Shown here piece after piece: positions 49,910 to 51,802 of a DNA stretch of 56,702 bases. A model generated the notes under the pieces. It was not told where the DNA came from and made no database searches. It saw nothing but the letters and a program-made list of their open reading frames with translations. The DNA comes from a virus. The position numbers and the translations under genes are program-made. The stretch lies in UHGV virus genome UHGV-0213557; one strand, given 5' to 3'. Positions within the stretch are counted from its first letter, which is position 1; each line of letters starts with the position of its first letter.

Positions 49910-51802
49910 TTATATAAATCTTCTCACATGTGTGTATGCTTTTCCTTTTCTATAAGAATTAACAGACTCTATTTTTACCACATCTCCTGTTTGTGGTGAA
50001 TGAATTATTTGATTGTTTCCAATATACATTACAACATGATTACTACTTCCTCCTCCAATTCTACATAATAAGTCTCCTGCTTTCCACTTGCTTCTATCTT
50101 TTAAATCTACTGCTTTTCCTGCTTTACTTTGTGCAGAAGCAGTACGAGGAATTTTTATACCTATTTGTTTATAACACCATTGAGTAAACCCACTGCAATC
50201 AAAATTATTAGGACCTTCTGCTCCATACACATAATTACAACCCAGTTTACTTTTTGCTATACTAATTAATTTATCTTCTTTAGAGTTATTATTTGTACTA
50301 CTTTGGTTATTACCTTCAACTTGATATGTTTGTTCTTCATCTCCACCTATAATTATATAGCCATTCTTTCTACCAAATTTTTTACATTCACTAGCATTAG
50401 CTAATAGTACATCTATATGATATGTTCCGTTTGTTTCAACATATATTCTTCCTCCATTATCTTTAACTGTATATACTTTGTTGTCATAGGCAGTACCAGG
50501 AAGTATAATTTTTACTTTATCTCCATATTCAAAAACTGGATGTTTCTTTAGAAAATCATCAGTATACCAAGTTTTCTTAACTCCTTCTCGATTCATTGGA
50601 CCAGCAACAGTTCTTGATTTTACATCAAGTGGCTTTCCATTGCAATCTGTTTTTCCGCCTTCCATTGCATTGTTCCCTGGATAATATGCAGTAAATATAG
50701 CAGGAACTTTTTTACCTGTATTTTTTTTCGTAATACTTTGTGCAGGACCATTTTTCTTTTCATCCTTATTGTTAGTATTTCCACTTGAATATGAGCTTGA
50801 AGAATAAGAAGCAAATTCATCTCCATCAACAAGAGTCAAATCCATAAAATGACTGTTATTTTCAAAAGTATGTTTTACTTTCTCAACTAGCATATAATTT
50901 TGAAGTTTAATATCTCCTAGATTTAAAAAAACAGGTACTAAACAACCTGCTCTCACTCTAATATCTCCAAGTACATTTTTTAAACTTAATGACTTAGTTT
51001 TCTTATTATATAGTTTTAGAAGTATATCACACTTTTGTTTTATCTCTGCTTCACTCATGTTTTTGTCTACTGTATCAAACATTTGAAGTATTCCCCAACT
51101 CCTCATATGCGTTGAGTCTTGAGCAATATACACATCTCTTTTTCCTGTTTCTTCATTATCTCTCACAAGTTTAATCTTTGTGTAAGTATCACTATCTATT
51201 GATGAATTATAGTCAAAGTCTTCTATTACATCATTGTTCATAACAGTATCTAATTTCATTGATGCAACATTCTTTAATGTTATTCTTCCAAAATCATCAT
51301 ATAACACATACATTTCTTTTTTCTCTCTTAGAGTATCATCTAGTGCAGTTAAGACCATATCAAAGAGTGTTTTATTTTCTTCAACTCTCGATATTTTATA
51401 TTTTGTATCTTCTATGACATTGTATTTTAAATTAAAATCTTTAGCCAACATCTTTACAAGTTCACTTGCTGTTTTATTACTATATACATAAGTATCTTTA
51501 TTTTTAAAATATCTCAACTGGTCATAAGCAACTATTTTAATGTGATTTTCTTTATCTCTTTTCTTCTGAAATATATATCCATAAAATATGCCAATTCCCT
51601 TATAATATATCCTTACAGAATTACCTTCGCAAAACTCTAATATATCATCCATTGCTATAGTAAACTCTAACTTTGAAGGTGAACCTCTTCTTTCTATCTC
51701 CCATGTGATACCATCAATGACAGCAGGTTCGTAGAAATCTTCCCAATGTGCAATAACTAGCCTTATATCTCTATCATTCGCCAGAACTAAATCATCAGAC
51801 AA
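49910..51802 (-). CDS. XkdQ-like tail protein fused to a C-terminal NlpC/P60 endopeptidase (virion-associated lysin)
   Basis: C-terminus ..LGCNYVYGAEGPNNFDCSGFTQWCYKQIGIKIPRTASAQ..HVVMYIG.. (Cys/His NlpC/P60 motifs). Confidence 0.65.
   Translation of the reverse strand: MSDDLVLANDRDIRLVIAHWEDFYEPAVIDGITWEIERRGSPSKLEFTIAMDDILEFCEGNSVRIYYKGIGIFYGYIFQKKRDKENHIKIVAYDQLRYFKNKDTYVYSNKTASELVKMLAKDFNLKYNVIEDTKYKISRVEENKTLFDMVLTALDDTLREKKEMYVLYDDFGRITLKNVASMKLDTVMNNDVIEDFDYNSSIDSDTYTKIKLVRDNEETGKRDVYIAQDSTHMRSWGILQMFDTVDKNMSEAEIKQKCDILLKLYNKKTKSLSLKNVLGDIRVRAGCLVPVFLNLGDIKLQNYMLVEKVKHTFENNSHFMDLTLVDGDEFASYSSSSYSSGNTNNKDEKKNGPAQSITKKNTGKKVPAIFTAYYPGNNAMEGGKTDCNGKPLDVKSRTVAGPMNREGVKKTWYTDDFLKKHPVFEYGDKVKIILPGTAYDNKVYTVKDNGGRIYVETNGTYHIDVLLANASECKKFGRKNGYIIIGGDEEQTYQVEGNNQSSTNNNSKEDKLISIAKSKLGCNYVYGAEGPNNFDCSGFTQWCYKQIGIKIPRTASAQSKAGKAVDLKDRSKWKAGDLLCRIGGGSSNHVVMYIGNNQIIHSPQTGDVVKIESVNSYRKGKAYTHVRRFI

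What the first reader, a model, noticed from the sequence alone, without database searches (positions are those of the whole stretch)
49910..51802. Baseplate XkdQ-like protein fused to an NlpC/P60 peptidase: virion-associated peptidoglycan hydrolase
The C-terminal ~120 aa carry the Cys/His NlpC/P60 catalytic motifs (..FDCSGFTQWCY.. / ..HVVMYIG..) on a tail structural protein. This is separate from the CD27L-like amidase endolysin and is of interest as a second lytic activity against the C. difficile cell wall.
Basis: partly seen in the sequence, partly recalled or inferred. Interest (0 to 1): 0.4.

Follow-up and report, generated by a model that had tools for sequence, protein, structure and literature searches.

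The report
Phage baseplate hub with two wall-cutting enzymes
This gene encodes the central baseplate hub of a C. difficile phage tail carrying two cell-wall-cutting enzyme domains (a sugar-chain cutter and a peptide cutter); this protein type is already known, so the finding is correct but ordinary.

Summary
Window 49910-51802 (-) is a 630-aa ORF with a YqbQ/XkdQ-like hub (residues 32-324, Pfam E 2.8e-115). It has an NlpC/P60 peptidase at residues 522-628 (E 5.6e-25), and its Cys536/His589/His601 are intact.

The whole protein is homologous to the cryoEM-resolved diffocin "hub-hydrolase" CD1368 (E 5.9e-61), which has the same three-module layout. It sits in the same gene order: tape measure, LysM tube initiator, hub-hydrolase, spike, sheath initiator, wedge. 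A separate holin and a CD27L-type amidase endolysin lie elsewhere in the window.

The most likely function is a virion-borne enzyme that is tethered to the baseplate and released on tail contraction to cut glycan and peptide bonds during DNA injection.

The identical protein is already in databases as "C40 family peptidase". Its phiC2 orthologue has been annotated as a hydrolase since 2006. Sister proteins (phiMMP01 CWH, Ecd09610) are proven lytic. Novelty: already known. Interest is low.

One modest extra: the lytic modules are shuffled as cassettes on a nearly constant hub.

The parts
49910..51802 (-). Complete hub-hydrolase CDS (630 aa, TTG start; stop codon at 49910-49912)
   Evidence: ORF list. 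Start and length agree with phiC2 p22 and with the 100%-identical protein P0001. PHROG 400 'tail protein' matches end to end, E 2.8e-281. PDB 8v3w_H, the diffocin Hub-Hydrolase CD1368, matches with E 5.9e-61 over residues 27-619.
50831..51802 (-). Hub domain (residues 1-324): YqbQ/XkdQ-like, gp27-type baseplate hub; acidic (pI 5.6)
   Evidence: Pfam PF24032, E 2.8e-115, residues 32-324. Aligns to the CD1368 hub and to the phiCD508 XkdQ-related hub 9g8s_q. It is 94-99% identical in all C. difficile relatives examined.
50714..50830 (-). Linker 1 (residues 325-363): Ser/Asn/Lys-rich, low complexity; the end of the phiMMP01 DNA match falls here
   Evidence: Sequence VDGDEFASYSSSSYSSGNTNNKDEKKNGPAQSITKKNTGKKV. 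The megablast match to phiMMP01/03 stops at gene nt 1073, which is codon 358. The alignment diverges after residue ~358. The equivalent CD1368 segment 315-337 is described as a flexible loop.
50339..50713 (-). Middle domain (residues 364-488): MltA/YuiC-type '3D' double-psi beta-barrel, a predicted lytic transglycosylase; basic (pI 9.2). Key codons: Thr371/Tyr373 (50684-50692), Asp448 (50459-50461), Asp464 (50411-50413)
50273..50338 (-). Linker 2 (residues 489-510): Asn/Ser-rich, predicted disordered
   Evidence: pLDDT is below 50 for model residues 137-151, which are protein residues 491-505. Sequence GDEEQTYQVEGNNQSSTNNNSKEDKL. The 'TYQ..NN' stretch is shared even with glucosaminidase-type relatives.
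49913..50272 (-). NlpC/P60 (C40) cysteine endopeptidase domain (residues 511-630); basic (pI 9.8). Catalytic codons: Cys536 (50195-50197), His589 (50036-50038), His601 (50000-50002)
   Evidence: Pfam PF00877, E 5.6e-25, residues 522-628. About 40 PDB NlpC/P60 hits, best the C. difficile Acd24020 catalytic domain 7cfl, E 4.4e-22. Foldseek TM-score (target-normalised) 0.84-0.87 to NlpC/P60 crystal structures. C536/H589/H601 are invariant in alignment A1 and align to C495/H543/H555 of CD1368.
51795..52484 (-). Context: LysM protein, the tail tube initiator ('tube tail'), which sits immediately above the hub in the particle
   Evidence: Pfam LysM. PDB 9g8s_T, phiCD508 gp61 tail tube initiator, E 2.7e-09. 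Role of the diffocin counterpart CD1367.
49636..49896 (-). Context: DUF2577 protein, the predicted central spike/needle tip enclosed by the hub trimer
   Evidence: Pfam DUF2577, E 2.2e-17. Its position after the hub matches CD1369 in the diffocin. phmmer found no PDB hit at E < 0.01.
49212..49631 (-). Context: sheath initiator
   Evidence: Pfam PF10934, E 4.1e-33. PDB 8v3w_L, CD1370, E 2.4e-09.
48162..49211 (-). Context: Baseplate J / triplex (TRI-2) wedge protein. In the diffocin its wing domains dock the hydrolase lobes before contraction
   Evidence: Pfam Baseplate_J, E 3.1e-52. PDB 8v3w_E, TRI-2 CD1371, E 1.5e-23. Docking described.
52500..54893 (-). Context: tape measure protein
   Evidence: Pfam TMP_3, E 1e-46.
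41075..41887 (-). Context: the separate canonical endolysin (CD27L-type Amidase_3); the holin is at 43090-43347
   Evidence: Pfam Amidase_3 and Phage_holin_5_2. PDB 3qay E 2.8e-110 and 4cu5 E 6.5e-51.

Best explanation
The gene encodes the central baseplate hub of a phiC2-like contractile-tailed C. difficile phage, with two peptidoglycan-cleaving modules attached by flexible linkers. This is a 'hub-hydrolase'.

Shown here:
- The protein has three modules. They are a YqbQ/gp27-type hub (residues 1-324), an MltA/YuiC-type 3D double-psi beta-barrel (364-488) and an NlpC/P60 cysteine peptidase (511-630).
- The residues needed for catalysis are conserved in both enzyme modules: Tyr373/Asp448/Asp464, and Cys536/His589/His601.
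- The protein has full-length homology and gene-order identity with the diffocin hub-hydrolase CD1368, which cryoEM located in the particle.

Inferred by homology:
- Three copies of the hub form the 6-to-3-fold adaptor between the LysM tube initiator and the DUF2577 spike.
- In the extended tail, the basic hydrolase lobes are parked on the wedge (Baseplate J/triplex) ring.
- Receptor binding and baseplate rearrangement release the lobes.
- As the spike is driven into the wall, the lytic transglycosylase lobe cuts MurNAc-GlcNAc glycosidic bonds.
- At the same time the NlpC/P60 lobe cuts stem peptides, probably the gamma-D-Glu-mDAP bond.
- Together they open a local hole in the thick wall so the tube can reach the membrane and deliver DNA.

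On this reading the protein acts at entry. Lysis at the end of infection is done by the separate holin and CD27L-type amidase.
For: - Domain hits: PF24032 E 2.8e-115 and PF00877 E 5.6e-25; PHROG 400 'tail protein' matches over the full length.
- PDB 8v3w_H, Hub-Hydrolase CD1368, matches with E 5.9e-61 over residues 27-619.
- Cai et al. 2024 (PMC11329794) describe CD1368 as hub 1-314, lytic transglycosylase 338-458 (Tyr-Asp-Asp) and NlpC/P60 465-581 (Cys-His-His). They report it docked on the wedge and released on contraction.
- All six proposed catalytic residues align one to one with CD1368 and are invariant in relatives.
- The AF2 models are confident (pLDDT 85.5 and 86.9).
- The C-terminal domain matches NlpC/P60 crystal structures with target-normalised TM-scores of 0.84-0.87.
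- YuiC chemistry (PMC4499186): Thr91 orients the catalytic Asp162, and Tyr93 and Asp151 assist. This gives a Thr-x-Tyr ... Asp ... Asp pattern like the one seen here.
- The flanking genes are the tube initiator, sheath initiator and TRI-2 wedge homologues of the solved C. difficile particles.
- Sister proteins sharing a 96-99% identical hub (phiMMP01 CWH) or described as nearly the same protein (Ecd09610) lyse C. difficile. Their isolated NlpC/P60 domains are lytic, and CWH gave clear zones in zymograms.
- A separate holin and CD27L-type endolysin exist in the window.
- No internal start codon preceded by a ribosome-binding site would yield a free lysin.
Against: - No virion proteomics or structure exists for this phage or for phiC2 in what I could search. 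Incorporation and docking are extrapolated from a tailocin whose hub is only 20% identical.
- In the diffocin the hydrolase lobes were built with AlphaFold help at low local resolution, and their activity is described as predicted, not measured.
- The window's own middle domain does not reach Pfam's 3D threshold (E 0.098).
- A sequence profile of the middle-domain family does not reach MltA or YuiC. The lytic-transglycosylase assignment therefore rests on fold and motif conservation.
- The first of the three name-giving Asp residues is absent (Gly401; Ala in the family consensus).
- At least one C. difficile myophage (phiCD508) infects without any tail hydrolase, so the enzymatic activity may not be essential.
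Confidence: 0.85

Rival explanations
1. The protein is an endolysin. It would be a soluble late enzyme that lyses the cell from within at the end of infection, with the N-terminal ~350 residues acting as a cell-wall-binding domain. This is how the phiMMP01 (CWH) and CD630 (Ecd09610) homologues were named.
For: Mondal 2021 and Sekiya 2022 call the homologues endolysins and show exogenous lysis. The Ecd09610 N-terminal domain bound C. difficile cells slightly.
Against: - The N-terminal domain is a full-length YqbQ hub (E 2.8e-115). It is homologous to a protein resolved inside the diffocin baseplate.
- The gene lies between the tube initiator and the spike, overlaps its upstream neighbour by 8 nt, and is not near the holin.
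- The phage has its own holin and CD27L-type amidase cassette.
- CWH1-350 was completely inactive, and removing it increased lysis. Sekiya et al. themselves doubt that it is a meaningful binding domain.
Confidence: 0.04
2. The C-terminal lobes mainly have a mechanical or regulatory role. They would act as a 'ripcord' or latch on the wedge ring that sets the contraction trigger, and their catalytic activity would be dispensable or vestigial.
For: Cai et al. liken the hub-hydrolase trimer to the pyocin ripcord and show the lobes bound to the triplex wing domains before contraction. phiCD508 penetrates the same host envelope with a 316-aa hub that has no enzyme domains.
Against: - Catalytic residues of both lobes are strictly conserved across distant relatives.
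- Between phage and diffocin, the lobes are more conserved (44-48% identity) than the hub (20%).
- Family members swap in other peptidoglycan peptidases at the same position: M23 in 11 of 50 and CHAP in 10 of 50. C. difficile relatives swap in a glucosaminidase. This points to selection for wall cleavage rather than for one docking shape.
- The homologous NlpC/P60 domains are measurably lytic.
- This rival is not exclusive with the main explanation.
Confidence: 0.08
3. Only the NlpC/P60 domain is an enzyme. The middle double-psi beta-barrel would be a non-catalytic glycan-binding module, like expansins or catalytically inert RlpA-type barrels, that positions the peptidase on peptidoglycan.
For: - The window's Pfam 3D hit is sub-threshold.
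- The family lacks the first '3D' aspartate.
- No hub-hydrolase 3D-type domain has been assayed. Cai et al. only predict activity.
Against: - The equivalents of the catalytic Asp (YuiC D162, MltA D308), the assisting Asp (D151/D297), the Tyr and the orienting Thr are invariant or nearly invariant across 72 sequences.
- In sister proteins the same position is occupied by an active glucosaminidase, that is, another glycan-cleaving enzyme.
- The missing first Asp (YuiC D129) is not among the residues the YuiC paper assigns a mechanistic role: D162 is catalytic, and T91, Y93 and D151 assist.
Confidence: 0.2

Closest known systems
Diffocin hub-hydrolase CD1368 (C. difficile R-type bacteriocin; PDB 8v3w chain H; Cai et al. 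2024, PMC11329794)
   Same: - Same three-module order: hub, then MltA/3D-type lytic transglycosylase, then NlpC/P60, with flexible linkers.
- Full-length alignment, E 5.9e-61.
[quoted passage not shown]
- Same insertion in the lytic-transglycosylase barrel relative to the wider family.
- Same neighbouring genes: tube initiator, spike, sheath initiator, TRI-2.
   Different: - Belongs to a DNA-free tailocin rather than a phage.
- 581 aa versus 630 aa.
- The hub is only 20% identical, whereas the lobes are 44-48% identical.
- The window's linkers are longer and Ser/Asn-rich.
phiC2 p22 'putative hydrolase' (ABE99485), phiCDKH02 'NlpC/P60 family protein' and CDMH1 gp24
   Same: These are orthologues in the same genome position: 94%, 95% and 86% nucleotide identity over the whole gene. 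The middle domain is 99% (phiC2) and 98% (phiCDKH02) identical by tblastn.
   Different: CDMH1 carries the other 3D allele (about 53% identity in the middle domain). None of these records annotates the lytic-transglycosylase-like domain.
phiMMP01 CWH lysin (YP_009206142; Mondal 2021, PMC8199566) and C. difficile 630 prophage Ecd09610 (Sekiya 2022, PMC9405191)
   Same: - phiMMP01 CWH shares a 96% identical hub and the same gene position.
- Both carry a C-terminal NlpC/P60 domain.
- Both are experimentally lytic on C. difficile, and the peptidase domain alone is active. CWH also gave clear zones in zymograms.
   Different: - The middle module is a GH73-type glucosaminidase (PF01832), not a 3D barrel.
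- The phiMMP01 NlpC/P60 domain is only 46% identical.
- Both were interpreted in those papers as endolysins with an N-terminal binding domain.
MltA / YuiC (Sps) '3D-domain' lytic transglycosylases (Pfam PF06725; PDB 2pi8, 2g6g, 4wjt)
   Different: - Sequence similarity is too low for HMM detection from this protein.
- The first Asp of the '3D' trio is replaced by Gly or Ala.
- There is a ~20-residue clade-specific insertion.
- The domain is fused inside a phage hub instead of being a secreted or lipoprotein enzyme.
phiCD508 needle hub gp62 (XkdQ-related protein, PDB 9g8s chain q; Wilson 2025, PMC11948020)
   Same: A homologous hub domain in a C. difficile myophage (E 2.5e-05), with the same baseplate gene set.
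   Different: It is 316 aa with no enzymatic domains. The authors propose purely mechanical penetration for phiCD508.
T4 gp27-gp5 hub-lysozyme complex and other tail-associated lysins of phages of Gram-positive bacteria
   Same: The concept is the same: a wall-degrading enzyme carried at the tip of a contractile tail and used at entry. Cai et al. equate the CD1368 hub with T4 gp27. The rest of this comparison is my own background knowledge.
   Different: In T4 the lysozyme is part of the spike protein gp5, not the hub. That enzyme is a single muramidase, not a lytic transglycosylase plus peptidase pair.

Membership tests
XkdQ/YqbQ-like baseplate hub (Pfam PF24032; gp27-type hub) | Full-length match to the family profile above the curated threshold | tested here: met
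   E 2.8e-115, 385 bits against a cut-off of 27; profile positions 1-293 of 294; residues 32-324.
XkdQ/YqbQ-like baseplate hub (Pfam PF24032; gp27-type hub) | Gene lies in the inner-baseplate block between the tube initiator (LysM/XkdP-like) and the spike and sheath initiator | tested here: met
   Gene order is TMP, LysM, this gene, DUF2577, sheath initiator, Baseplate J, Mu gp48-like. The neighbours hit solved C. difficile baseplate proteins.
XkdQ/YqbQ-like baseplate hub (Pfam PF24032; gp27-type hub) | Forms a trimeric 6-to-3-fold adaptor in the assembled tail | not testable with these tools
   Known for CD1368 and phiCD508 gp62 from cryoEM. I modelled neither the hub nor a multimer.
NlpC/P60 (MEROPS C40) peptidoglycan endopeptidase | Profile match above the gathering score over the whole domain | tested here: met
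   PF00877, E 5.6e-25, 87.8 bits against a cut-off of 23; profile positions 2-105 of 105.
NlpC/P60 (MEROPS C40) peptidoglycan endopeptidase | Catalytic Cys and His, plus a third polar residue (His), present at the aligned positions | tested here: met
   Cys536, His589 and His601 are invariant in 9 relatives. They align to C495/H543/H555 of CD1368, where Cai et al. report a Cys-His-His triad without printing residue numbers, and to the DCSG / HVG.YIG motifs of 7cfl and 6biq. In the related CdCwlT33800, the Cys and first-His mutants lose all activity.
NlpC/P60 (MEROPS C40) peptidoglycan endopeptidase | Papain-like alpha+beta fold | tested here: met
   In the AF2 model (mean pLDDT 85.5) the NlpC/P60 blocks average 85-98 apart from one at 75. 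Foldseek E 1e-10 to 1e-13 and target-normalised TM-scores 0.84-0.87 to 7cfl, 8er5, 7v6s and 6b8c.
NlpC/P60 (MEROPS C40) peptidoglycan endopeptidase | Measured peptidoglycan endopeptidase activity and a defined bond specificity | not testable with these tools
   Only homologues have been assayed. The bond cleaved (probably gamma-D-Glu-mDAP, the family norm cited) is an inference.
MltA / 3D-domain (PF06725) lytic transglycosylase | Profile match above the Pfam gathering score | tested here: not met
   The window protein scores E 0.098 and 13.3 bits against a cut-off of 23.8. Of its 50 closest family representatives, 16 are hit at E <= 0.001 (best 1.3e-07). A family profile does not reach MltA or YuiC in the PDB. 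I therefore describe the domain as 'MltA/3D-like' and do not file it as a curated PF06725 member.
MltA / 3D-domain (PF06725) lytic transglycosylase | Double-psi beta-barrel fold superposable on MltA or YuiC | tested here: met
MltA / 3D-domain (PF06725) lytic transglycosylase | Three conserved aspartates, including the catalytic one (YuiC D129/D151/D162; MltA D261/D297/D308) | tested here: inconclusive
   Two aspartates are present and invariant: Asp448 in ..DNGG.. and Asp464 in ..HIDVL... By motif they correspond to the second Asp and the third, catalytic Asp. The first is Gly401 (Ala in the family). The Thr371-x-Tyr373 motif corresponds to YuiC T91/Y93. I could not check residue-level superposition because model coordinates cannot be exported.
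MltA / 3D-domain (PF06725) lytic transglycosylase | Produces 1,6-anhydro-MurNAc products | not testable with these tools
   This needs muropeptide LC-MS. It has not been reported for any hub-hydrolase 3D-type domain in the papers read.
Phage endolysin (holin-dependent lysis enzyme) | Encoded in the lysis cassette next to a holin, with no virion-structural domain | tested here: not met
   The gene lies about 6.5 kb from the holin, inside the baseplate block, and carries a hub domain. The true endolysin is the CD27L homologue at 41075-41887.

The most novel reading that the evidence does not exclude
The lytic end of this hub evolves as a set of exchangeable cassettes.

What the data show:
- On a hub that is 94-99% identical, C. 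difficile phages combine at least three middle modules (3D allele A, 3D allele B at ~52% identity, or a GH73 glucosaminidase). They combine these with at least three NlpC/P60 alleles (85-96%, 62% and 46% identity).
- The break points fall in the Ser/Asn-rich linkers.
- In the wider family the peptidase position is filled by M23 or CHAP domains.

The unexcluded novel reading is that this shuffling is adaptive. The enzyme pair carried by a phage would be matched to strain-specific or growth-phase-specific peptidoglycan chemistry. It would then act as a second, post-adsorption determinant of host range, independent of S-layer receptor binding.
Probability: 0.15. Interest if true: 0.45.

Novelty: already known. 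Interest (0 to 1): 0.2.

Why it matters
- It documents that this phiC2-like phage carries two tail-borne wall-cleaving domains, not one, in addition to its CD27L-type endolysin.
- Hub-hydrolases are candidates for anti-C. difficile enzybiotics. Truncated homologues already lyse the pathogen fairly specifically.
- They also bear on an open mechanistic question raised in the 2026 IUCrJ review: how much enzymatic digestion, as opposed to mechanical force, contributes to penetration of the S-layer-covered Gram-positive envelope. phiCD508 lacks such enzymes, while the diffocin and phiC2-type phages have them.
- A practical point for annotators: in all 30 phage records that contain this middle domain, none of the labels names a 3D or lytic-transglycosylase domain.
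- None of this is new in kind.

Tried and rejected
- **Word-indexed search of the middle domain.** It returned only two fragments; the index evidently fails on short queries. I replaced it with the exhaustive HMMER search, which found 119 representatives.
- **Trimmed 20-sequence profile of the middle domain against PDB sequences.** It reached only CD1368. YuiC and MltA were not detected, and the RlpA-like barrel PA4485 scored E 0.43. Sequence alone therefore cannot place the domain in the 3D family.
- **Internal translation start that could release a free lysin.** No in-frame ATG, GTG or TTG between codons 300 and 530 has a Shine-Dalgarno-like motif upstream. I rejected this idea.
- **PDB search with the DUF2577 spike protein.** No hit, so its identification as the spike rests on Pfam and gene order.
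- **Endolysin reading from the CWH and Ecd09610 papers.** Considered and rejected on domain, synteny and cassette grounds (see the rival explanations).
- **Start codon.** I considered whether the TTG start was an artefact. The next in-frame start is codon 51, which would truncate the hub profile match. phiC2 and the identical database protein both use the same start.
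Full report
**1. Observation**

It overlaps the stop of the upstream LysM gene by 8 nt. The next gene starts 13 nt after its stop, so it is embedded in an operon.

- The same start is annotated in phage phiC2 (p22).
- A 100%-identical 630-aa protein is already in public databases as "C40 family peptidase [Clostridioides difficile]", representing a 90%-identity cluster of 799 sequences.
- The quoted motifs are real: FDCSGFTQWCY at residues 534-544 and HVVMYIG at 589-595.
- Pfam gives YQBQ-like (PF24032) at residues 32-324, E 2.8e-115, and NLPC_P60 (PF00877) at residues 522-628, E 5.6e-25. Both cover their profiles essentially end to end.
- PHROG 400 "tail protein" matches the full length.

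**2. Source and context**

The window is a circularly permuted, apparently complete genome of a phiC2/phiCDKH02-like C. difficile myovirus. Head-to-sheath genes match at window positions 2129-17416. The block from tape measure to lysis genes matches at about 55600 down to 37000, at 93-97% identity to phiCDKH02, phiC2 and CDMH1. The gene itself is 95% identical to phiCDKH02, 94% to phiC2 and 86% to CDMH1 at the DNA level.

Reading the minus strand, the gene order is:

| Gene | Coordinates |
|---|---|
| Tape measure | 52500-54893 |
| LysM protein | 51795-52484 |
| This gene | 49910-51802 |
| DUF2577 | 49636-49896 |
| Sheath initiator | 49212-49631 |
| Baseplate J | 48162-49211 |
| Mu gp48-like | 47552-48169 |
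| Tail fibre | 46548-47540 |

Against solved structures:

- The LysM protein hits the phiCD508 tail tube initiator gp61.
- The sheath initiator hits diffocin CD1370.
- Baseplate J hits diffocin TRI-2 CD1371 and phiCD508 gp65.

This is the inner-baseplate block of a contractile tail. The lysis cassette is elsewhere: a holin at 43090-43347 and an Amidase_3 endolysin at 41075-41887. The endolysin is a close CD27L homologue (PDB 3qay E 2.8e-110, 4cu5 E 6.5e-51).

**3.

About 190 residues lie between the two Pfam domains. On their own they give only a sub-threshold 3D-domain hit (PF06725, E 0.098).

An exhaustive HMMER search with residues 360-500 found 119 representative clusters at E <= 1e-3, of which 56 were at E <= 1e-10. 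Among 50 of them scanned with Pfam:

- 27 have a YQBQ hub.
- 16 are recognised as 3D domains (best E 1.3e-07).
- The partner domain is NlpC/P60 in 15, peptidase M23 in 11 and CHAP in 10.

- Lower scores to expansin, RlpA-like and kiwellin barrels.

The domain is therefore an MltA/YuiC-type double-psi beta-barrel.

Across alignments of 20 to 72 sequences, the invariant or near-invariant residues include Thr371 and Tyr373 (FTAYYP), Asp448 (DxGG) and Asp464 (hiDvL).

The YuiC paper assigns catalysis to Asp162, oriented by Thr91, with Tyr93 and Asp151 assisting. A 1,6-anhydro product was seen in the crystal. The pattern here matches, except that the first of the three name-giving aspartates is Gly401 (Ala in the family consensus). 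This agrees with the "Tyr-Asp-Asp" triad that Cai et al. report for the diffocin domain.

A family sequence profile does not reach MltA or YuiC in the PDB. I therefore call the domain MltA/3D-like rather than a curated PF06725 member.

**4. The peptidase**

- Cys536, His589 and His601 are invariant in nine relatives.
- They align with C495/H543/H555 of CD1368 and with the catalytic motifs of C. difficile Acd24020 (7cfl) and Trichomonas NlpC (6biq).
- In the two-domain AF2 model (residues 355-630, mean pLDDT 85.5), the NlpC/P60 part is mostly above 90. A disordered linker spans protein residues 491-505.
- Foldseek gives target-normalised TM-scores of 0.84-0.87 to NlpC/P60 crystal structures.
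- In the related CdCwlT33800, mutating the equivalent Cys and first His abolishes activity.

**5. Closest known system and mechanism**

The best PDB match for the whole protein is 8v3w chain H, "Hub-Hydrolase (CD1368)" of the C. difficile diffocin. It matches with E 5.9e-61, aligned over residues 27-619. Cai et al. 2024 describe it as follows:

- Flexible loop, then a lytic transglycosylase (338-458) and an NlpC/P60 endopeptidase (465-581).
- The two lobes bind the wedge (triplex wing domains) before contraction and are proposed to be released on contraction.
- Once released they would act as "scissors" on glycan and peptide bonds while the spike drills in.
- The lobes were modelled with AlphaFold help, and the activity is predicted rather than measured.

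The window protein has the same module order and all six proposed catalytic residues. It also shares the ~20-residue insertion in the barrel that the wider family lacks. Per module, identity to CD1368 is 20% for the hub, 48% for the lytic-transglycosylase lobe and 44% for the peptidase lobe.

I therefore assign it as the phage counterpart of the diffocin hub-hydrolase, acting at entry. The hub is acidic (pI 5.6) and both lobes are basic (pI 9.2 and 9.8). This suits binding to an anionic wall.

**6. Experimental support from sister proteins**

phiMMP01 CWH (hub 96% identical) and the C. difficile 630 prophage protein Ecd09610 were expressed and shown to lyse C. difficile.

- Their isolated NlpC/P60 domains are active, and CWH gave clear zones in zymograms.
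- The isolated N-terminal part of CWH (residues 1-350) is completely inactive.
- Removing the N-terminal part increases activity.

Those papers call the proteins endolysins with an N-terminal binding domain. The hub homology, the synteny and the presence of a separate lysis cassette argue against that label. Their middle domain is a glucosaminidase (PF01832), not a 3D barrel.

**7. Mosaicism**

Module-wise identities to the window protein are:

| Module | Identity across C. difficile relatives |
|---|---|
| Hub | 94-99% in all |
| Middle | 96%, about 52%, or unrelated (glucosaminidase) |
| NlpC/P60 | 85-96%, 62% or 46% |

These occur in several combinations. The DNA match to phiMMP01 ends at gene nt 1073, which is codon 358, inside the Ser/Asn-rich linker 1. 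A conserved "TYQ..NN" stretch in linker 2 is shared by all variants. The lytic modules thus behave as cassettes exchanged at the linkers. This is typical phage modularity. It is worth noting but is not new in kind.

**8. Distribution and novelty**

By tblastn the middle domain occurs in 30 phage records. All are from C. difficile or Terrisporobacter phages, including phiC2, phiCDKH02, CDMH1, phiSemix9P1, phiMMP04, phiCDHM11/13/14/19, JD032, phiCD119, phiCD481-1 and phiCD506. The labels under the match are "C40 family peptidase", "cell wall hydrolase", "NlpC", "hypothetical protein" or none. None names a lytic transglycosylase.

phiCD508 has a 316-aa hub without enzymes and is proposed to penetrate mechanically. 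A 2026 review states that structures of C. difficile phages predicted to carry virion hydrolases are under investigation.

The protein is therefore already known as a gene, as a family and as an architecture. What remains open is experimental: virion location in a phage, activity of the 3D-type lobe, and its contribution to infection.

**9. Verdict**

- The best explanation is a virion-borne hub-hydrolase used at entry (confidence 0.85).
- Novelty is "already known" and interest is low (0.2).
- The most novel reading not excluded is that cassette exchange of the lytic modules acts as a post-adsorption host-range determinant (probability about 0.15).

Noticed in passing
window 55591-56493: A CRISPR array lies inside the tail-gene module, between the tail tube/assembly genes and the tape measure. 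The repeat finder reports 14 copies with a 65-67 nt period. About 11 of them carry the full 29-nt repeat ATTTACATACCACATAGTTAATATAAAAC (reverse complement GTTTTATATTAACTATGTGGTATGTAAAT); the first three copies are degenerate. From memory, phage-borne CRISPR arrays are known in C. difficile prophages. I did not analyse the spacers.
   Followed up: partly
window 41966-42319 and 42503-42838 (-): The AbiF-like (Pfam Abi_2) gene between the holin and the endolysin is split into two ORFs. One covers profile positions 2-75 and the other 150-184, so the gene looks disrupted or partly deleted compared with the intact AbiF of phiC2.
   Followed up: no
window 38582-40981 (-): A 799-aa protein with leucine-rich repeats, a Listeria-Bacteroides repeat and three CWB2 cell-wall-binding repeats lies just downstream of the endolysin. 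It looks like a phage-encoded Cwp-like surface protein, possibly a lysogenic-conversion or superinfection-related factor. It is also present in phiCDKH02 and CD2301.
   Followed up: no
whole window (1-56702): The window appears to be a circularly permuted, complete ~56.7-kb phiC2/phiCDKH02-like myovirus genome. The minus-strand structural operon runs from about 17400 down to 1 and continues from 56702 downward.
   Followed up: partly
window 50525-50596 (-), residues ~403-426 of the hub-hydrolase: There is a ~20-residue insertion (MNREGVKKTWYTDDFLKKHPVFEY) in the lytic-transglycosylase barrel. The C. difficile phage alleles and diffocin CD1368 share it, but the wider hub-3D family lacks it. It contains a short predicted helix, and its role is unknown.
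   Followed up: partly
window 54958-55482 (-): A 174-aa protein with two zinc-ribbon CxxC pairs and a Gly/Ala-rich hydrophobic stretch is encoded between the CRISPR array and the tape measure. Its function is unknown.
   Followed up: no
window 44819-46531 (-): A 570-aa tail protein has an N-terminal glycine-rich ALK/LTK-type domain (PF12810, E 2.6e-43), downstream of the tail fibre. It may be part of the receptor-binding apparatus.
   Followed up: no
public phage records (H30-H59): In all 30 phage records that contain the middle domain, the labels under the match are C40 peptidase, cell wall hydrolase, NlpC, hypothetical protein or nothing. None names the MltA/3D-like lytic transglycosylase domain. 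This is a systematic annotation gap.
   Followed up: yes
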